A stretch of 8,353 nucleotides of DNA, taken from IMG/VR virus record IMGVR_UViG_2877274432_000004; one strand, 5' to 3'. Under the pieces are notes generated by a model. The model was not told the origin of the DNA, ran no database searches, and was given only the letters and a program-made list of their open reading frames with translations. A program made the translations under genes and the position numbers. Shown here one piece after another: positions 1-7,921 of the stretch (position 1 is the first letter of the stretch; each line of letters starts with the position of its first letter). The stretch is from a virus. Lineage: Duplodnaviria; Heunggongvirae; Uroviricota; Caudoviricetes.

Positions 1-1266
1 GTGACCAAAAAAACTAAGTCCTTATCACCAGCAGCGATAAAAAGCCTCCAGCGAAAAGCCAGCAACGAAAAAAAGGACCTTTTCATCACTGACGGCGAAG
101 GGCTGGAACTGGTGATTAAGCACAAAAGCGCCTCTTGCTTGTGGCGTTACCGCTACTACAAGCCACACACAAAAAAACGGGCCATGTTAAGCATTGGCGC
201 ATATCCAGAAATAAGCATTGCGGGCGCGCGAAAGATAAAAGACGAATACAGGGCGCTTCTTTCTGGTGGCATTGACCCAAAAGAGCACAGAGAGAAACAG
301 CGCCTTAGTGAAGTGATGAAGAGAGAGAACACCTTCAGGCATGTAGCTACGCTTTGGTTTGAACTTAAAAAAGGGCAAGGACTCGCAGAAGGCACACTAC
401 GCGATACATGGCGCTCGCTGGAGCGTAATGTATTCCCGTCAGTCGGCAACAGACCAGTAGCAGACCTGATCGCAAGCAACTTCATCGAAGCATTAAAACC
501 ATTAGCCGCCCAGGGGAAATTAGATACCGTCAGAAGAACGGCGCAGCGAATCAATGAGGTCATGTATTACGCCGTTAATACCGGAATGATTACCGCGAAT
601 GCGGCATCACAGATAAACAAGGCATTTAACGCGCCGAGCGCTAAGAACATGCCAGCAATACGCCCTGAAGAACTCCCCGATTTTATGCAGAAGCTGGCAA
701 CGGCACGAGTGGAACGACAAACGCGACTGGTTATTGAGTGGCAGTTACTGACAATTTGCCGACCAGGTGAAGCAGCTGGCGCGCGCTGGTGTGAGATTGA
801 TTTTGAGGCGAAGGAATGGCGCATACCAGAGCACAGACTTAAACAACGCAGGGAACACGTAATACCACTCTCGAAGCAGGCGTTAGCCATTCTGGATGTC
901 ATGAAGCCAATAAGCGGTCATCGTGAGTTTATATTTCCACACAACAGCGACCCGCAGCGCCCTATGTGCACACAAACAGCAAACGCAGCAATAAAACGCA
1001 TGGGTTTTGGTCGGCGGCTGGTTGCTCATGGCTTGCGCTCAATAGCAAGTACCGCACTTAACGAGCAAGGTTTTGACTCTGACGTAATCGAGGCGGCATT
1101 GTCACACATAGACAAAAACGAGGTTCGCCGCGCGTACAACCGCTCAACCTATCTCGAGCAGCGACGCCCGTTAATGGCGTGGTGGGGGAATTTTGTAGAG
1201 GCAGCCGCAAGCGGGAGCGTAAGCGCCACAGGTGGCTATCGTGGGTTAAAAATGGTTAACGGTTAA
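1..1266 (+). CDS. int: Tyrosine recombinase / site-specific integrase, P4-type; possibly 5'-partial because the ORF starts with GTG at window position 1
   Basis: 421-codon ORF. C-terminal catalytic signatures: H-G-L-R in VAHGLRSIAS (nt ~1021-1050) and the nucleophile Tyr in RRAYNRSTY (nt ~1126-1152). N-terminal region (FITDGEGLELVIK ... WRYRYY) resembles the P4-integrase arm-binding domain. Recognised by eye, not searched. Confidence 0.9.
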   Translation: MTKKTKSLSPAAIKSLQRKASNEKKDLFITDGEGLELVIKHKSASCLWRYRYYKPHTKKRAMLSIGAYPEISIAGARKIKDEYRALLSGGIDPKEHREKQRLSEVMKRENTFRHVATLWFELKKGQGLAEGTLRDTWRSLERNVFPSVGNRPVADLIASNFIEALKPLAAQGKLDTVRRTAQRINEVMYYAVNTGMITANAASQINKAFNAPSAKNMPAIRPEELPDFMQKLATARVERQTRLVIEWQLLTICRPGEAAGARWCEIDFEAKEWRIPEHRLKQRREHVIPLSKQALAILDVMKPISGHREFIFPHNSDPQRPMCTQTANAAIKRMGFGRRLVAHGLRSIASTALNEQGFDSDVIEAALSHIDKNEVRRAYNRSTYLEQRRPLMAWWGNFVEAAASGSVSATGGYRGLKMVNG

Positions 1267-1270
1267 GGGC

Positions 1271-2167
1271 ATGACAAACAAAAAGATAAACCTTCCTGAA
1301 AGGGATTATTACCCGTTAGACAAGGCAGCCAGAAGGCTTGGGTGTGACGTTGATGATTTGATTCACTTCATCGCTACAGGGAAGATGTGTTTTTGGTACC
1401 GTCATCACATAGACGAGGTTTTGACATTACATAATTATAAAAACGCATTTAATAGTGTATCAGCATCAGATTATTATTATGAAAATGATGAAGGCGTATT
1501 CATCAGAGCAACCGACATATTAAAATTACTTGAATTCTCATCTTTTGGTGAAAAAATAATAACCGATGAAGAACAGCTAACGGAAAAGATATTTTTTAAT
1601 TGCTGTGGCGGTTATTCTGAAACAGATATTTTTATATACAACTATCATGGATATAAACAAAGAAAAATCAGAACACAGTTACCACATAAAATCAGGGTTG
1701 TGGCTTCAGGACTTTTACAGGTATTTAATACAAGCATTGATATAGAGAATCTATCAAATGACGTCACAGATTGTTATGTGCGACGCATCGTTATAGCAGA
1801 TAAAGGAAAAGAACCAAAGATAACAATAAATTTATATGGCAAAACAATAAATATTAGTGACATTTTCATCTCAAAAGAAGAGATAAAAATAGTAATGAAC
1901 GGCGGCAGACAACCAGGAGATATGGTAAAGGATTTTTCAGATAAACACGCCTTGTCGCATTCGCAGAGTAAGAAAACAACCAATCTTCAGGCCAGAGTTA
2001 TCAAAAGACTAATCACCGCCATAGCCGGAGAAGAAGAGGCAGCAAACCCAAGAAGAGCGCTTGAGAACGGTCACAGCAAGTTAAGCCGCGCACTAACCAA
2101 AGCAGGGGTTGAAATTGGCGCAACCCCTTCATCTGTTGGTAAGTGGCTTGCAGACGTTGACGACTGA
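1271..2167 (+). CDS. Hypothetical protein, 298 aa, AT-rich cargo gene directly downstream of int; possible N-terminal HTH; function unknown
   Basis: Long ORF starting 4 nt after the int stop (weak SD AAGGG). Central part about 22-28% G+C in hand-counted 60-nt samples (1441-1500, 1801-1860) versus about 48% in int (1021-1080). Followed by a strong intrinsic terminator. No family recognised. Confidence 0.7.
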   Translation: MTNKKINLPERDYYPLDKAARRLGCDVDDLIHFIATGKMCFWYRHHIDEVLTLHNYKNAFNSVSASDYYYENDEGVFIRATDILKLLEFSSFGEKIITDEEQLTEKIFFNCCGGYSETDIFIYNYHGYKQRKIRTQLPHKIRVVASGLLQVFNTSIDIENLSNDVTDCYVRRIVIADKGKEPKITINLYGKTINISDIFISKEEIKIVMNGGRQPGDMVKDFSDKHALSHSQSKKTTNLQARVIKRLITAIAGEEEAANPRRALENGHSKLSRALTKAGVEIGATPSSVGKWLADVDD

Positions 2168-2188: not shown

Positions 2189-2212
2189 GCCCGTAATATT
2201 ACGGGCTTTTTT
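2189..2212 (+). terminator. Rho-independent terminator closing the int-ORF2 transcription unit
   Basis: Hairpin GCCCGTAA-TAT-TTACGGGC (7-8 bp stem) at 2189-2206 followed by TTTTTT at 2207-2212, 22 nt after the ORF2 stop. Confidence 0.7.
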
Positions 2213-2304
2213 CGTAATATTGCGCAATACCGACATTAACCATGTTTGCATATCCTTAAGCAAGTTTAGGCAAGTTATCGCCTGAAACAAAAGGAAAGCA
2301 AAGC

Positions 2305-2508
2305 ATGAACATCACAGAAAAGAAAATCCTTACAAAACGAGAAGTCGCAAATCTTCTTCGCCTTAGTACAACAAGCATTGACACAATGGTTAAGGCTGGT
2401 GAGTTTATTCCTGGCTTTAAGCGTGGATTGCGTCGCGTTGGCTGGTTTGAGGATGAGGTGAAATCATGGCTTGAGAAGAAAGTAGAGGAGCGTTATCAGC
2501 AGGAATAA
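2305..2508 (+). CDS. alpA: AlpA-family (prophage CP4-57-type) HTH transcriptional regulator / excision activator
   Basis: 67-aa ORF with SD AAAGGAAAG upstream. Sequence pattern (REVANLLRLS ... VGWFEDEVKSWL) is typical of AlpA-type small DNA-binding proteins. Position after int matches CP4-57-like and PICI-like islands. Confidence 0.8.
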   Translation: MNITEKKILTKREVANLLRLSTTSIDTMVKAGEFIPGFKRGLRRVGWFEDEVKSWLEKKVEERYQQE

Positions 2509-2851
2509 TAAATTTCCATGTGTGACATATAAAAGCCACCAGCGCAGAAAATAAAACGCCTCACGTTATGCAAAACGGGTTAACCATCGTGATGCCTTGC
2601 CGCATTCAATTAACGGCAGGTAAAAAAATACCCGCAATGCAATAACACTACGGGCCATTAACGTAATATAAGGAGTTAACCGATGTGTATTGTATACAGT
2701 CGTGTGCATATTGTCACAGGCAACAGGCATCCGCGCCAAATACCCGCCAGAGAAAATCAGTTGATCGCCAGTATCAAAAATGGCTATGATTCCCGCACAC
2801 CTTATAAAACGGGTGTCGGGATTAGGACCCCGCTGACAATCGAGGCGATAC

Positions 2852-2874
2852 AGACGCCGAACGCGTCTTTTTTT
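2852..2874 (+). terminator. Intrinsic terminator-like hairpin plus U-run upstream of the first structured leader
   Basis: AGACGC-CGAAC-GCGTCT hairpin (2852-2868) followed by a 7-T run (2868-2874). It lies inside an open frame that starts at ATG 2683. Confidence 0.5.
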
Positions 2875-2933
2875 GTATCGGCGCACACGCACACCTTATC
2901 AATGGTGGGCTGTATGGGGCTGACTTCGGTCAG

Positions 2934-2955
2934 GCTGGTTCCCTTGATTGCCAGT
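2934..2955 (+). promoter_or_regulatory. Leader hairpin 1 (stem GCTGG/CCAGT, 12-nt loop) whose loop is complementary to the SD region of the downstream small ORF; candidate antisense/anti-SD RNA element
   Basis: Loop 9-mer CCTTGATTG (2942-2950) is the exact reverse complement of CAATCAAGG (3020-3028), which overlaps the SD AAGGAGG of the ORF starting at 3040. The stem and a downstream AACCCTGT block are conserved in the paralogous unit. Confidence 0.4.
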
Positions 2956-3039
2956 AGTCCTAACCCTGTACAGTCCACCGCCAGCGAGTTTAGGACCTCC
3001 GGCGGTGGTTACATTCCATCAATCAAGGAGGCTGCCATC

Positions 3040-3228
3040 ATGGCTACTACCCCTGCCCTCGTACATTCTCAGACAGCCTTTATCTGGCGTTTTATCACCT
3101 TTGGCACGTCAGAACGTCAAATCATCCACGTAACCGCCTGGACGGAACGCGAAGCGCGTAACCGTTGCCCGTCCGGTTTTGTCGCTGTATTCGCTGCCCG
3201 TATCCGTCAGGGGGTGAGTCATGCTTAA
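3040..3228 (+). CDS. Small protein (62 aa), paralog 1; Icd/Kil-like (phage cell-division-inhibitor-like) by recollection
   Basis: ATG at 3040 with strong SD AAGGAGG 7 nt upstream. The C-terminal 45 aa are clearly paralogous to the ORF ending at 3685 (FIWRF ... VTAxTEREAR ... VFAARIRQGVSHA versus FVWRF ... VTAATEHEAR ... VFVARIRQGVRHA). The ORF track's longer version starting at 2683 is judged to be leader, not protein. Confidence 0.55.
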   Translation: MATTPALVHSQTAFIWRFITFGTSERQIIHVTAWTEREARNRCPSGFVAVFAARIRQGVSHA

Positions 3229-3412
3229 AAACATGTTGCTCGCCTCTTCTTTCGGGCTGTATGATGCCGGAGTCGTCCACATGGCGACCGGGTTTGACAG
3301 CCTGAATACTACAGCGGACAGCCGCTTACATTCCGATATGCGGTTTTTTTGTGTCCGTAAGCCTACCCATACCCGCATTATGGCGGGGCGTAACGGGGGA
3401 GCCTTTGCGCTC

Positions 3413-3433
3413 GCTGGTTCCTGTAGTGCCAGT
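3413..3433 (+). promoter_or_regulatory. Leader hairpin 2 (same stem GCTGG/CCAGT, different loop) complementary to the SD region of the second small ORF
   Basis: Loop CCTGTAGTG (3420-3428) is the exact reverse complement of CACTACAGG (3496-3504), overlapping SD ACAGGAG of the ORF starting at 3515. Pairing extends to 13 bp with one G-U (3416-3428 versus 3496-3508). Confidence 0.4.
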
Positions 3434-3514
3434 CTGTCAACCCTGTTACGTCTCGCCACCATGTTTGACAGCGTAGTAGCGAGACTCCTTAATTTCACTA
3501 CAGGAGCCTTTCAC

Positions 3515-3685
3515 ATGGCTGTATCCGCACGCCCTTACTTTGTCTGGCGCTTTATGCAGTGCCACCACAGCAACATCGATGTATTCACCGTTACCGCTGC
3601 CACTGAGCACGAAGCACGCGCCCAGCTGCCGCACGCACATCTTGTTTTTGTCGCCCGTATCCGTCAGGGGGTACGTCATGCGTGA
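3515..3685 (+). CDS. Small protein (56 aa), paralog 2 of the Icd/Kil-like ORF
   Basis: ATG at 3515 with SD ACAGGAG. C-terminal region paralogous to 3040-3228. Stop overlaps the next start (ATGCGTGA). The ORF track's longer version starting at 3221 is judged to be leader. Confidence 0.55.
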   Translation: MAVSARPYFVWRFMQCHHSNIDVFTVTAATEHEARAQLPHAHLVFVARIRQGVRHA

Positions 3686-6025: not shown

Positions 6026-6436
6026 ATGACAGCACAGATAGCAGCTTACGGGCGGCTGGTAGACGACCCGCAGGTAAAACAGACCAGCAAGGGAACACCG
6101 ATGACGCTGGCGCGTATGACGGTATCGCTGCCATGCAGTCAGGCGCAGGACGGGCAGGCGACGTTATGGCTGTCGGTCCTGGCATTTGGCAAACAAGCCG
6201 ACCAACTGGCAGGACATGAGAAAGGCAACGTAATCAGTGTATCCGGTGTGATGCAGGTAAGCCAGTGGACCGGACAGAACGGGGAAACGCGGCAGGGTTA
6301 TCAGGTCATTGCAGACAGCGTAATCAGTGCGAAAACGGCGCGACCAGGTGGCAACAGACGCAGGACCACAGGCACACAGGGTAATCAGCCACCAGCGGGA
6401 GGCGATGACCCTTATGGTGATGATATTCCGTTCTGA
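6026..6436 (+). CDS. ssb: Single-stranded DNA-binding protein (SSB) with acidic C-terminal DDIPF tail
   Basis: 136-aa ORF from ATG 6026 (SD AGGAGAGG, 7-nt spacer). OB-fold-like pattern (GRLVDDPQVK ... W ... AFGK) and a C-terminal ...DDPYGDDIPF matching the conserved SSB protein-interaction tail. The ORF-track start at 5957 is probably too early. Confidence 0.8.
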   Translation: MTAQIAAYGRLVDDPQVKQTSKGTPMTLARMTVSLPCSQAQDGQATLWLSVLAFGKQADQLAGHEKGNVISVSGVMQVSQWTGQNGETRQGYQVIADSVISAKTARPGGNRRRTTGTQGNQPPAGGDDPYGDDIPF

Positions 6437-6446
6437 GGGGAGAACG

Positions 6447-6719
6447 ATGGTACATGACCGCATAGTGGAAGAACTGGAGTCGAAAGGCTTTTACCGGAGA
6501 GCGGCGGCGCGATGGGCCGAAGTTATGATGCTGGTGGAGACAGACAGGGAACGCGAACGGGTGGCAATGCGCAGGGCAGAGTGTTACGGGAAGGCACAGA
6601 GGCCACCGGAGCCGCCAGAGGAGAACTACGCAGACCTGAGGAAAGCAGTAAACCGCACTTACGCAGAAATGGGGATAGGAGGGAGATGTAAAAAAATCTG
6701 GCGTAGCTACCAGAAGTAA
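6447..6719 (+). CDS. PerC-like small transcriptional regulator (tentative)
   Basis: 90-aa ORF from ATG 6447 (SD GAGGGGA), starting 11 nt after the ssb stop. The motif FYRRAAARWAEVM resembles PerC-family proteins as I recall them. The ORF-track start at 6327 overlaps ssb and is unlikely. Confidence 0.55.
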   Translation: MVHDRIVEELESKGFYRRAAARWAEVMMLVETDRERERVAMRRAECYGKAQRPPEPPEENYADLRKAVNRTYAEMGIGGRCKKIWRSYQK

Positions 6720-6832
6720 GCACAGGACAGGAACAGTCAGCCGGATTTTCTGATTGTGTGCGTGTATATCGTTTTATCGCGACGTTAAATTAAACTGGTA
6801 TGACCAGATACACCAACATAAGAGGCTACCGG

Positions 6833-7240
6833 ATGAACGATCAAAACCATCACGCACCAAAAGACATTGAGCGGATTAAATTCATAAATGACATAGACGG
6901 CGGAGACAAACCCGGCGAGGCATGGTGTGATTCGCTTGCTGATATCGTGTCTCATTCAGTGGCTGAGCTTACCCGTAATGGCATGGAGCAGTCTGAAGCC
7001 TTCAGAATCGCCAAGCAGGTTGTTGCTGCAATCGCCTTCTATGCTGGTGGGCGAAGTCTTTACCTTCCAACAGGCAGATCACTTTTTGTAGCATTGCGCG
7101 AATACGAGATTTACCACAGGTGGGATAACGGCGAAAAATTACAGGAATTACGCAAAGAGTACGCAATATCAGAAACCCATATTTACGACATCATCCGGCG
7201 ACTAAGAAAGAAGCACGCCAATAAAATCACGCAAGACTAA
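6833..7240 (+). CDS. Mor-family (Mu middle-operon-regulator-like) transcriptional activator
   Basis: 135-aa ORF from ATG 6833 (SD AGAGG, 7-nt spacer); alternative start at 6800. C-terminal HTH-like region LREYEIYHRWDNGEKLQELRKEYAISETHIYDIIRRL is typical of Mor/C-type activators. Confidence 0.7.
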   Translation: MNDQNHHAPKDIERIKFINDIDGGDKPGEAWCDSLADIVSHSVAELTRNGMEQSEAFRIAKQVVAAIAFYAGGRSLYLPTGRSLFVALREYEIYHRWDNGEKLQELRKEYAISETHIYDIIRRLRKKHANKITQD

Positions 7241-7516: not shown

Positions 7517-7616
7517 GGCTGTATGGTGTACTCTTAATCGGTAAAGCGGCACCCGCTTGTATAGCTTCCAGAAAGCGGGATGTTTATGTGGGTTCGACCC
7601 CCACCACCAGCAACCA
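7517..7616 (+). other. tRNA-like element, copy 1 (degenerate 5' half; intact T-arm plus acceptor 3' strand)
   Basis: T-stem GTGGG (7588-7592) / CCCAC (7600-7604) with T-loop TTCGACC, followed by CACCAGCA. Shares a ~33-nt block with copy 2. Not a canonical tRNA. Confidence 0.3.
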
Positions 7617-7635: not shown

Positions 7636-7717
7636 GCTGGTGTACGCTCAACGGGTAGAGCCGGTGCCAGCCTGTACAGGCTGATCATGTATGCGGGTTC
7701 GACCCCCGCCACCAGCA
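7636..7717 (+). other. tRNA-like element, copy 2: acceptor, D-arm and T-arm are tRNA-like but the anticodon arm is replaced by a perfect 16-nt palindrome
   Basis: Acceptor GCTGGTG (7636-7642) pairs with CACCAGC (7710-7716). D-arm GCTC-AACGGGTA-GAGC. T-arm GCGGG-TTCGACC-CCCGC (7693-7709). Central CAGCCTGTACAGGCTG is a perfect palindrome rather than a 7-nt anticodon loop. No encoded CCA. Confidence 0.35.
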
Positions 7718-7921
7718 CACCAAAACGAGCGCCACATCAACCAGCATTAAAACCGCCCTAAAACCATTTTCAAACTTTCGACAGCGCATACATGAACGCC
7801 ATCGGTTTGCATGTGCACATTGATACCCGTTATCGACGATCAAACAGCAAGGGTATCTTTTTCAAAAAAGGCATACAAAAAGGCATACAAAACGAAAATC
7901 AAAAACACATAATTAATATAA

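What the first reader, a model, noticed from the sequence alone, without database searches (positions are those of the whole stretch)
1271..2167. Strongly AT-rich 298-aa gene of unknown function co-transcribed with the integrase: candidate accessory or defence cargo
Seen in sequence: the ORF starts 4 nt after the int stop and ends at a strong intrinsic terminator (2189-2212). Its central ~500 nt is about 22-28% G+C in hand-counted samples against about 48% for flanking genes, while its 5' and 3' ends have near-normal composition, suggesting a recently acquired or swapped central domain. The N-terminus (YYPLDKAARRLGCDVDDLIHFIATGK) looks HTH-like; the rest matches nothing I recognise. Established knowledge: P4-like satellites and PICIs concentrate variable anti-phage and accessory genes in hotspots next to the integrase and att site. 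Inference: this is the island's variable cargo slot and the most likely place for an undescribed function such as phage interference, abortive infection or a helper-exploitation factor.
Basis: partly seen in the sequence, partly recalled or inferred. Interest (0 to 1): 0.7.

Follow-up and report, generated by a model that had tools for sequence, protein, structure and literature searches.

The report
Modular regulator gene guarding a satellite's switch
The AT-rich gene after the integrase is probably not defence cargo but an undescribed, domain-shuffling DNA-binding protein that travels with its own pair of palindromic binding sites just upstream of the satellite's master activator gene alpA, making it a candidate for the missing helper-phage-sensing switch of Gram-negative phage satellites.

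Summary
There is a 298-aa ORF (1271-2167) starting 4 nt after int. Its core is 31.6% GC against ~50% in the flanks, and a hairpin plus T-run follows it. The "defence cargo" reading is not supported: there are no hits in PADLOC, Pfam, NCBIfam or PHROGs, and no enzymatic domain. The protein belongs to an unannotated gammaproteobacterial family (185 representatives). It has a MerR/Xis-type winged-helix N-terminus, a hypervariable AT-rich centre and a conserved helical, HTH-like C-terminus. The family gene always lies directly upstream of, and co-oriented with, the alpA-led early operon of PICI-like satellites. These palindromes are present in every island that carries this C-terminal module and absent from alpA elements that lack it. 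Across 26 loci, the palindrome type follows the C-terminal module class and not the AlpA type. Between two otherwise ~96% identical E. coli islands, only the central ~580 nt is swapped. My best explanation (0.5) is an operator-binding regulator that gates alpA, with an exchangeable sensor domain. All of this is comparative inference; nothing has been tested biochemically.

The parts
1..1266 (+). P4-type tyrosine integrase gene. The ORF under study starts 4 nt after its stop codon.
   Evidence: Pfam Arm-DNA-bind_3, Phage_int_M and Phage_integrase. Annotated as an integrase in the 99.7% identical STEC17-183 locus.
1271..2167 (+). 298-aa gene of an unannotated three-module family (N-terminal wHTH, variable centre, C-terminal helical module).
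   Evidence: ORF found. No Pfam, PADLOC, PHROGs or NCBIfam hit. 11 clusters among 5.8 billion proteins. 185 representatives at E<=1e-3 in the profile search. 0 of 72 members hit Pfam.
1292..1429 (+). N-terminal conserved module (aa 8-53, LPxRxYYPLxxAAxxLxCxVxDLxHF), predicted winged helix-turn-helix.
1380..1960 (+). Hypervariable, AT-rich central cassette (about aa 38-230), predicted to be a beta-rich domain.
1967..2164 (+). C-terminal conserved helical module (aa 233-298, SKKTxNxQAxxIKxL...NPR...G...T/S.xVGKWL), HTH-like. It is the module whose class predicts the downstream palindrome type.
   Evidence: pLDDT 94-97. No Pfam or PDB sequence match; the only resemblance is a non-significant 25-aa match to the P-element transposase HTH at E=0.13.
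2189..2212 (.). Operator O1: an 18-bp perfect palindrome, GCCCGTAATATTACGGGC (core CGTAATATTACG, 2192-2203), followed by T6. In this island it doubles as a terminator-like hairpin.
   Evidence: The AATATT-core palindrome is conserved at this position in all islands that carry the C1 module.
2213..2224 (.). Operator O2: CGTAATATTGCG, with its centre 21 bp from the centre of O1.
   Evidence: GKAATATTNC occurs only at O1 and O2 in the 8353-nt window (expected 0.12; 0 of 200 shuffles reach the observed count). Spacing is 20-21 bp in every island.
2256..2275 (+). Tandem 10-bp direct repeat TTAAGCAAGT/TTAGGCAAGT between O2 and alpA. These may be AlpA sites (inference only).
   Evidence: repeat family D7.
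2305..2508 (+). alpA (HTH_17 / Phage_AlpA). It is the first gene of the early operon and the presumed target of regulation.
   Evidence: Pfam and PHROGs hits. AlpA is the master activator of Gram-negative PICIs, and its transcription depends on the helper phage (PMC6092414, PMC11773190).

Best explanation
The gene encodes a sequence-specific DNA-binding regulator of a PICI-like phage satellite. It is made together with the integrase while the island is integrated. It binds, probably through its conserved C-terminal HTH-like module and as a dimer on each site, to two palindromic operators. These are O1 (2192-2203) and O2 (2213-2224), two helical turns apart, lying between its own stop codon and the weak, activator-dependent alpA promoter. 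From that position it gates expression of AlpA, the auto-activating master switch for excision and replication. It could do so by repressing or insulating alpA from int-operon read-through until a helper phage is present, or by activating alpA when a helper is sensed. The hypervariable AT-rich central domain is the input (sensor) domain, and it most likely recognises a helper-phage product. Exchanging it as a cassette would re-tune which phage triggers the island. Shown here: the gene, its three-module architecture, the fold of its N-terminus, the synteny with alpA, the operator pair and its conservation, the co-variation of operator type with C-terminal module class, and the cassette swap. 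Inferred: that the protein binds O1/O2, that this controls alpA, the sign of the regulation, and that the centre senses a helper.
For: (1) The protein is built from DNA-binding-type modules only. The N-terminus has a MerR/Xis winged-helix fold. The C-terminus is a confident helical module with an HTH-like motif. No enzymatic domain is detected. (2) Synteny is conserved. In 10 of 10 contexts where the downstream side is visible, an AlpA/HTH_17 gene follows directly and in the same orientation. This holds from E. coli to Pasteurella at ~20-35% protein identity, and across different replication modules. In Pasteurella the gene is separated from int but still abuts the HTH_17-Ogr/Delta operon. (3) Paired AATATT-core palindromes spaced 20-21 bp lie 5-35 nt after the stop codon in 13 of 13 family islands, while the rest of the spacer is unalignable. 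In some islands the stop codon lies inside O1. The motif is unique within the window. (4) Controls support the association. The pair is absent upstream of alpA in EcCIMP1, K-12 CP4-57 and the first alpA of the Pasteurella island (0 of 3). It is also absent in 18 of 18 loci with a similar AlpA but no family member. In a reciprocal scan starting from the motif, the 3 hits with the 21-bp register are all arranged member -> motif -> alpA. (5) Operator type co-varies with module class. With one AlpA type held constant, C-terminal class predicts palindrome type in 26 of 26 loci. C1 goes with the AATATT core (16 loci), C2 with ACCGCAAYTGCGGT x2 (5), C3 with GGAGTTATCA..TGATAACTCC (3), and C4 with TTGCRTGCAA x2 (2). 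One N-terminal class occurs with 5 different C classes and operator types. The same AATATT operator also occurs with at least 4 very different AlpA proteins. AlpA, a host factor, or the central domain are therefore poor candidates for the binder; window and L002 differ in the centre yet share their operators. (6) No sigma-70 consensus promoter is found between O2 and alpA. This fits a regulated promoter, and the literature shows that alpA transcription in Gram-negative PICIs depends on the helper through an unknown route, and that no repressor is known (PMC6092414). (7) The centre is exchanged as a ~580-nt cassette between ~96% identical islands and is mosaic among E. coli alleles, as expected for a specificity domain in an arms race.
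Confidence: 0.5

Rival explanations
1. Anti-phage defence or helper-interference effector. The protein is expressed from the integrated island, recognises an invading phage component through its variable centre, and blocks infection, for example by binding phage DNA or promoters or by abortive infection.
For: The gene is next to int in a satellite, a region where defence genes are known to accumulate (background knowledge; cited in PMC10085698). Its hypervariable, cassette-swapped centre suggests an arms race. It is co-transcribed with int, so it is expressed in the resident state. Other PICIs give superinfection immunity (PMC11773190). Across PICIs the slot is occupied by several unrelated unknown families.
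Against: PADLOC gives no hit for this protein or for 10 other slot occupants. No nuclease, NTPase, membrane or toxin domain is seen. The conserved modules are of DNA-binding type. The tight, co-varying association with paired operators in front of the island's own alpA is unexplained by a pure defence role. The two roles are not exclusive, however: a repressor-like protein could also bind phage DNA, as CapR of PLE does (cited in PMC10111431).
Confidence: 0.2
2. Integrase accessory or recombination-directionality factor. The Xis-like N-terminus binds DNA or Int to control integration, excision or att-site choice.
For: The N-terminal fold matches excisionases (Pukovnik Xis, RdfS, AlpA-type Xis). 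In enterobacterial islands the gene is translationally coupled to or overlaps int, with gaps of 4 nt, 6 nt or an 11-nt overlap. Nearly identical islands sit at two different att sites.
Against: In Pasteurella the gene is 2.4 kb from int, with three genes in between, yet it still abuts the HTH_17 gene. The operators are ~2.2 kb from attL and are not repeated at the island ends. AlpA already fills the RDF role in these elements (PMC6092414, PMC10111431). The protein is 3-5 times larger than known RDFs.
Confidence: 0.1
3. Packaging-specificity factor. The protein is a TerS-like or Rpp-like protein whose adjacent palindromes are the satellite's pac/cos recognition site, and whose variable centre docks onto the helper terminase.
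Confidence: 0.07
4. Non-functional or silenced remnant: an AT-rich horizontally acquired ORF with no current role.
For: It has a strong AT bias with promoter-like sequences inside, is annotated everywhere as hypothetical, and is rare in E. coli (8 of 5426 complete genomes).
Against: Intact ORFs of similar length occur in 185 divergent clusters, with strongly conserved N- and C-terminal modules. The AlphaFold2 modules are confident. Synteny and adjacent sites are conserved.
Confidence: 0.03

Closest known systems
Stl / Rpr master repressors of SaPIs and other Gram-positive PICIs
   Same: Both are satellite-encoded, sit next to int, and are expressed in the integrated state. Both have a DNA-binding module plus a highly divergent partner-recognition part that differs between otherwise related islands. 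In both, operator sites lie between the regulator gene and the early (xis/alpA-rep) operon. The proposed logic is also the same: hold the island quiescent until a specific helper protein is sensed.
   Different: There is no sequence similarity and no Cro/CI-type HTH_3 domain. The gene here is co-oriented with the early operon and not divergent from it. It has two conserved end modules (wHTH and helical HTH-like) flanking the variable domain. The sign of regulation is unknown. Binding to DNA and to a helper protein is untested here.
MerR-family one-component regulators
   Different: There is no MerR or HTH_17 sequence signature, and no long coiled-coil dimerisation helix after the wHTH. The operators are upstream of the promoter and not inside a 19-20-bp -35/-10 spacer. 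Operator type follows the C-terminal module and not the wHTH.
AlpA / Vis / Xis-type excisionase-regulators (HTH_17, Phage_AlpA)
   Same: The wHTH fold is the same, the genomic neighbourhood (int-alpA integration zone of PICIs and P4-like satellites) is the same, and both are regulatory DNA binders.
   Different: This protein is 298 aa against 60-90 aa, with two extra domains. BLASTP finds no similarity to the island's own AlpA. It does not hit the Pfam models.
[quoted passage not shown]
   Same: Both show modular shuffling of DNA-binding end modules among satellite genes, rapid diversification, and regulatory roles in satellites.
   Different: There is no Bro-N, KilA, AntA or ASH domain. The gene is located in the integration zone, upstream of alpA, and not in the Bro zone downstream of it.
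Lambdoid immunity (imm) modules: repressor plus cognate operators exchanged as a unit
   Same: Gene and cis-acting operators are inherited and swapped together. Operator sequence co-varies with the DNA-recognition module.
   Different: The fold and family are different, the operators are downstream of the gene and not in a divergent promoter region, and the additional internal cassette (the sensor) is swapped independently of the operators.

Membership tests
Gram-negative PICI-type phage satellite (the island as a whole) | Inward-facing int at the left end, followed by a co-oriented AlpA/HTH_17 regulator | tested here: met
   int at 1-1266 and alpA at 2305-2508, both on the + strand.
Gram-negative PICI-type phage satellite (the island as a whole) | Four-zone order: integration, Bro/immunity-RNA, replication, late (PMC10111431) | tested here: met
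   An ash fragment, isrK, 2 x C4 RNA and Icd-like ORFs, then DUF4222, an AAA_25 RepA helicase and SSB, then PerC and Mor.
Gram-negative PICI-type phage satellite (the island as a whole) | No phage structural or lysis genes; small size; specific att site | tested here: met
   The island is ~8.4 kb between mdtP halves. No structural hits in Pfam or PHROGs. The core CATCCCGGG is repeated at the junctions.
Gram-negative PICI-type phage satellite (the island as a whole) | Induction, replication and packaging dependent on a helper phage | not testable with these tools
   This requires experiments, and no helper is identified. The island also lacks capsid-morphogenesis, terS or rpp markers, so SatelliteFinder would class it as 'Type C' (PMC10085698).
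P4-like satellite | The psu-delta-sid operon plus alpha primase and epsilon | tested here: not met
   None of the ORFs searched matches Psu, Sid, Delta or alpha. Only int, AlpA, an ash fragment and C4/CI-like RNAs are shared.
Stl/Rpr PICI master repressor | Cro/CI-type HTH (HTH_3) repressor homologous to Stl | tested here: not met
   No Pfam hit of any kind for the protein or for 72 relatives. The fold of the N-terminus is MerR/Xis wHTH.
Stl/Rpr PICI master repressor | Transcribed divergently from the early operon, with operators in the divergent region | tested here: not met
   The gene is co-oriented with alpA, and the operators lie downstream of its stop codon.
Stl/Rpr PICI master repressor | Binds operators controlling the early operon and is released by a helper-phage protein | not testable with these tools
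   Only indirect evidence is available: a conserved operator pair that co-varies with the C-terminal module.
MerR family | N-terminal wHTH of MerR type | tested here: inconclusive
MerR family | Operator located inside an over-long -35/-10 spacer of the regulated promoter | tested here: not met
   No promoter-like hexamers flank O1 or O2. The sites are 69-123 nt upstream of the alpA ATG.
Excisionase / AlpA (HTH_17, Phage_AlpA) | Small (about 50-90 aa) single-domain wHTH protein matching the Pfam models | tested here: not met
   The protein is 298 aa with three modules and no Pfam hit. BLASTP finds no similarity to the island's AlpA.
Known anti-phage defence systems (PADLOC-DB v2) | Profile match to a component of a described or candidate defence system | tested here: not met
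   0 families at E<=0.1 for this protein and 0 for 10 other slot occupants. DefenseFinder could not be run.
DUF6387 (another occupant of the same slot) | Pfam PF19924 match | tested here: not met
   No hit for this protein. hhalign of the family against a DUF6387 protein gives probability 0.2%.

The most novel reading that the evidence does not exclude
The int-alpA slot of Gram-negative PICI-like satellites encodes the long-missing master switch. It would be a family of shuffled three-module proteins (wHTH, swappable sensor, operator-binding C-module) together with their cognate paired operators. These proteins would couple alpA expression, and hence island induction, to a specific helper phage. 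Helper range would be re-programmed by exchanging the AT-rich central cassette, and immunity specificity by exchanging the C-module plus operators.
Probability: 0.3. Interest if true: 0.8.

Novelty: new variant of a known kind. Interest (0 to 1): 0.64.

Why it matters
How Gram-negative PICIs sense their helper phage is an acknowledged open question. [quoted passage not shown] Later surveys list only Int and AlpA in the integration zone (PMC10111431). A conserved DNA-binding protein with its own operators directly in front of alpA gives that question a concrete, clonable candidate and a defined cis element to mutate. If the central cassette sets helper specificity, it would also explain how near-identical satellites change helpers. 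It would provide a natural, modular sensor-regulator scaffold (separately swappable input, DNA-recognition and operator parts) of interest for engineering PICI-based delivery or diagnostic tools. If the explanation is wrong, the family (185 or more clusters, no annotation in any library) still needs a function.

Tried and rejected
The following led nowhere or were rejected.

- Pfam, NCBIfam, PHROGs and PADLOC scans of the protein gave nothing. Pfam on 72 relatives and on the C-terminal module alone gave nothing.
- Profile searches of PDB sequences with the full-length and C-terminal alignments returned only a non-significant 25-aa HTH-like match to the P-element transposase.
- Foldseek against BFVD found no match at E<=1e-3. 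The afdb50 library was unavailable.
- The integrase-based scan of genome contigs returned only 6 distant, uninformative loci.
- The scan with the window's own AlpA in viral contigs found nothing.
- My guess at the CFT073 PICI coordinates hit a lambdoid prophage instead, so EcCICFT073 itself was not examined.
- Within-group versus between-group identity of the N- and C-modules did not discriminate which module reads the operator flanks. The module-class table did.
- hhalign of the family against L039-type and L042-type slot proteins was only suggestive (E=0.011 and 0.001; probability 4% and 21%). I do not claim homology for the L039-type, although BLAST single linkage joins the L042-type N-termini to the family.
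- I considered the palindromes as AlpA sites, host-factor sites, cassette-recombination sites or mere terminators. I rejected each of these. The palindromes do not follow AlpA type. They vary with module class. They lie on only one side of the gene, whereas the cassette that is actually swapped is internal. Most copies lack a GC clamp and a T-run.

Full report
**Observation.** The window encodes a P4-type integrase at 1-1266 and, 4 nt after its stop codon, a 298-aa ORF at 1271-2167. Composition drops from ~50% GC to 29-35% across 1400-2000. Positions 1400-1950 are 31.6% GC, and the lowest 100-nt window is 23%. The two ends of the ORF are near normal. A hairpin at 2189-2206 followed by T6 is detected.

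**Where the window comes from.** The window is 99.7-99.8% identical to an ~8.4-kb island that splits mdtP in E. coli STEC17-183. The island has the four-zone layout described for Gram-negative PICIs (PMC10111431):

- integration zone: int, this ORF, alpA
- Bro/immunity zone: an ash fragment, isrK and two C4 antisense RNAs, each preceding an Icd-like ORF
- replication zone: DUF4222, an AAA_25 RepA-type helicase and SSB
- late zone: PerC and Mor

It has no structural or packaging genes.

**What the protein is.** It matches nothing in Pfam, NCBIfam, PHROGs or PADLOC. A word-indexed search of 5.8 billion proteins finds only 11 clusters, all in E. coli or Salmonella. An exhaustive profile search of 1.84 billion representatives finds 185 at E<=1e-3, mostly 240-320 aa, and many match in two separate stretches at the two ends. 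Members occur in Salmonella, Providencia, Enterobacter, Klebsiella/Raoultella and Pasteurella, and all are named 'hypothetical'. None of 72 members hits Pfam.

Alignments show three parts:

- a conserved N-terminal module (LPxRxYYPLxxAAxxLxCxVxDLxHF)
- a centre that cannot be aligned
- a conserved C-terminal module (SKKTxNxQAxFIKxLL...NPR...SEIxxDFxxxGxxxPSGKTVxxWLK)

**Is the slot 'variable cargo'?** At close range it is not. Only 8 of 5426 complete E. coli genomes carry this island backbone, and all 8 have a family member of exactly 897 nt in this position.

At long range the synteny persists:

- Salmonella homologs at 35% identity start 6 nt after an integrase and precede alpA, in islands with a different (Toprim_3 + DUF927) replication module.
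- Klebsiella, a second Salmonella lineage and metagenomic contigs show int -> member -> AlpA/HTH_17.
- In Pasteurella multocida the member is separated from int by alpA, an unknown gene and a P2-type capsid gene, but still lies immediately upstream of an HTH_17-Ogr/Delta-Ash-primase operon.

The invariant neighbour is therefore the AlpA-led early operon.

I fetched 28 viral-contig loci whose AlpA is 62-84% identical to that of one family-bearing island. In 22 of them the int-alpA slot could be analysed. It always holds one, occasionally two, co-oriented AT-rich genes of 240-350 aa, but these belong to several classes: this family and its module-shuffled relatives (11), an 'L039-type' (5), DUF6387 (3) and three singletons. 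None matches PADLOC.

**The central cassette.** Against the second E. coli allele (L002), the island is 92-100% identical through int and from ~1960 onward, but only 33-58% identical between ~1380 and ~1960. That region is exactly the AT-rich core. The E. coli alleles are mosaic within this region. The low GC is not special to this island. In 12 of 12 islands the centre is 24-40% GC (GC3 17-35%), against 37-57% for the adjacent int.

**The operator pair.** Aligning the member-to-alpA spacers of ten islands revealed two copies of a palindrome with an AATATT core in every one. Elsewhere the palindrome is GGAATATTCC or CGAATATTCG. The rest of the spacer is unalignable.

- GKAATATTNC occurs nowhere else in the window (expected 0.12; 0 of 200 shuffles reach the observed count).
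- The two centres are 20-21 bp apart in all islands. They begin 5-35 nt after the stop codon and lie 69-123 nt before the alpA ATG. In some islands the stop codon lies inside the first palindrome.

Controls support a link to the family:

- The pair is absent upstream of alpA in EcCIMP1, whose alpA promoter is experimentally helper-inducible (PMC11773190). It is also absent in K-12 CP4-57 and upstream of the first alpA of the Pasteurella island.
- It is absent in all 18 loci with the same AlpA type but no HMM-detectable family member.
- In a reciprocal scan of IMG/VR for GGAATATTCC-N9-12-GGAATATTCC, the three hits with the 21-bp register were all arranged member -> motif -> alpA. The other seven hits, which belong to about three unrelated repeat families with other spacings, had neither gene.

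**Who reads the operators?** I clustered the first 90 and last 80 residues of all 34 slot proteins separately. One N-terminal class (24 loci) is combined with five C-terminal classes. The downstream palindrome type is predicted by the C-terminal class in 26 of 26 loci of the four multi-member classes:

| C-terminal class | Loci | Downstream palindrome |
|---|---|---|
| C1 (the window's class) | 16 | AATATT core |
| C2 | 5 | ACCGCAAYTGCGGT x2 |
| C3 | 3 | GGAGTTATCA...TGATAACTCC |
| C4 | 2 | TTGCRTGCAA x2 |

Proteins with a divergent, L042-like N-terminus but a C1 C-terminus keep AATATT palindromes. Proteins with the family N-terminus but another C-terminus have other palindromes. All of this happens in front of one AlpA type with a conserved alpA-proximal leader. 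Conversely, the AATATT operators occur with at least four very different AlpA proteins.

The binder is therefore unlikely to be any of the following:

- AlpA, because the palindromes do not follow AlpA type
- a host factor, because the palindromes vary with module class
- anything that tracks the central cassette, because window and L002 differ in the centre yet share operators

The simplest reading is that the slot protein's C-terminal module recognises the palindromes next to its own gene, and that gene plus sites move as one module. The caveat is that the C-terminal coding region and the sites are less than 250 bp apart, so linkage contributes to the association.

**Mechanism proposed.** The protein is a regulator made with Int in the integrated state. 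It occupies O1/O2 just upstream of the alpA promoter, which shows no consensus sigma-70 hexamers. From there it gates the auto-activating AlpA switch, which in Gram-negative PICIs triggers excision and replication and is turned on by the helper through an unknown route (PMC6092414). The hypervariable centre would be the input domain. The site position fits repression, insulation against int-operon read-through, or class-I-type activation, so I do not commit to a sign.

In this E. coli island, O1 is extended by a GC clamp and followed by T6, so it may also terminate int-operon transcription. However, the RNA minimum-energy fold pairs O1 with O2, with the U-run in the loop (z = -2.7). Most other islands lack the clamp and T-run. 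The conserved feature is therefore the palindrome and not the terminator.

**Rivals.**

- Defence or interference cargo (0.2): the location, arms-race-like variation and resident-state expression are consistent with it. However, there is no defence-profile hit and no effector domain, and it does not explain the operators. The two roles could coexist.
- Int accessory factor or RDF (0.1): the Xis-like fold and coupling to int fit, but the Pasteurella arrangement, the distance of the operators from att, and the presence of AlpA argue against it.
- Packaging specificity factor (0.07): TerS-like wHTH resemblance and a gene-plus-site module fit, but the architecture and expression timing are wrong.
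- Silenced remnant (0.03): contradicted by the conservation.

**Comparison with known systems.** In function, the closest analogue is the Stl/Rpr master repressor of Gram-positive PICIs. It too is next to int, has a DNA-binding part plus a highly divergent helper-recognition part, and has operators in front of the early operon. Membership fails on sequence, HTH type and gene orientation. The N-terminus shares its fold with MerR regulators and excisionases, but the protein fails their sequence models and their architecture. The module shuffling resembles the Bro-N network of satellites, but no Bro-type domain is present and the location differs. I found no description of this gene, family or operator in the searchable literature. 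The PICI surveys list only Int and AlpA/HTH_17 in this zone.

**Verdict.** The 'swapped centre' is confirmed and generalised. The 'defence cargo in a free slot' reading is not supported. The evidence points to an undescribed, modular regulator-plus-operator unit controlling alpA. I rate the explanation at 0.5 because every functional step is inferred from comparative genomics. The interest is substantial because it gives a concrete candidate, and a defined cis element, for the unresolved question of how Gram-negative PICI-type satellites are kept silent and how they sense their helper.

Noticed in passing
window 7555-7612 and 7636-7717: The island carries its own tRNA gene with a long variable arm (Rfam tRNA 37.5 bits; PGAP calls it tRNA-Tyr in the identical locus). 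ARAGORN found nothing here. A degenerate tRNA-like copy lies just upstream (20.6 bits, below the gathering score; PGAP calls it 'tRNA-OTHER'). A satellite-borne tRNA could counter tRNA-targeting defences or serve the helper, but this was not examined.
   Followed up: partly
window 7864-7887; L001 10650-10673 (upstream of int); junctions at L001 ~10520 and window ~7944: A tandem AAAAAGGCATAC x2 occurs both upstream of int and near the right end, and these are probably integrase arm-type sites. The junction core CATCCCGGG in mdtP mimics the 3' end of tRNA-Ile (…GGGGCCACCA), which is the site used by the ~96% identical island in six other E. coli genomes. The mdtP insertion therefore looks like a secondary-site integration that inactivates the efflux gene.
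   Followed up: partly
window 2797-3685: A duplicated P4/P1-type immunity unit: isrK (2797-2873), then C4 antisense RNA (2898-2985) and an Icd-like ORF, then a second C4 (3376-3463) and a second Icd-like ORF.
   Followed up: no
window 2256-2275: A tandem 10-bp direct repeat, TTAAGCAAGT/TTAGGCAAGT, lies between operator O2 and the alpA start. Salmonella islands have a different tandem repeat (ACGGCCAG) at the equivalent place. These may be AlpA auto-activation sites.
   Followed up: no
window 2189-2224 (RNA): Because O1 and O2 are near-identical palindromes, the transcript can fold in two ways. It can form the O1 terminator hairpin, or an O1:O2 hairpin that places the U-run in the loop (MFE -15.5 kcal/mol, z -2.7). 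This is a potential terminator/anti-terminator alternative.
   Followed up: partly
L039-L066 (viral contigs), slot between int and alpA: Other uncharacterised gene families occupy the same slot, each followed by its own paired palindromes: L039-type with ACCGCAATTGCGGT x2, L042-type with TTGCATGCAA/TTGCGTGCAA, and one DUF6387 member (L046) with TTCCGGAA x2. All are AT-rich relative to their int. DUF6387 has no known function.
   Followed up: partly
L038 19358-19784 (EcCIMP1 int-alpA gap, reverse strand): EcCIMP1, which lacks the family, has a different repeated element upstream of its helper-inducible alpA (GCGGAATGTTCTTTAACAG / GCGCAATTGTTCTTTAAAAC, direct repeats). This hints at a different regulator there.
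   Followed up: no
P0004 (E. coli allele), aligned to window aa ~129-140: One allele carries an 8-residue tandem duplication (KIRTRLPH-KIRTQLPH) inside the variable centre, in a low-confidence loop of the model.
   Followed up: no
window 6327-6719 and 6800-7240: The island's late zone consists only of a PerC-family and a Mor-family regulator. A PerC homolog in EcCIMP1 was shown to repress LEE expression (PMC11773190), and this island occurs in STEC strains.
   Followed up: no
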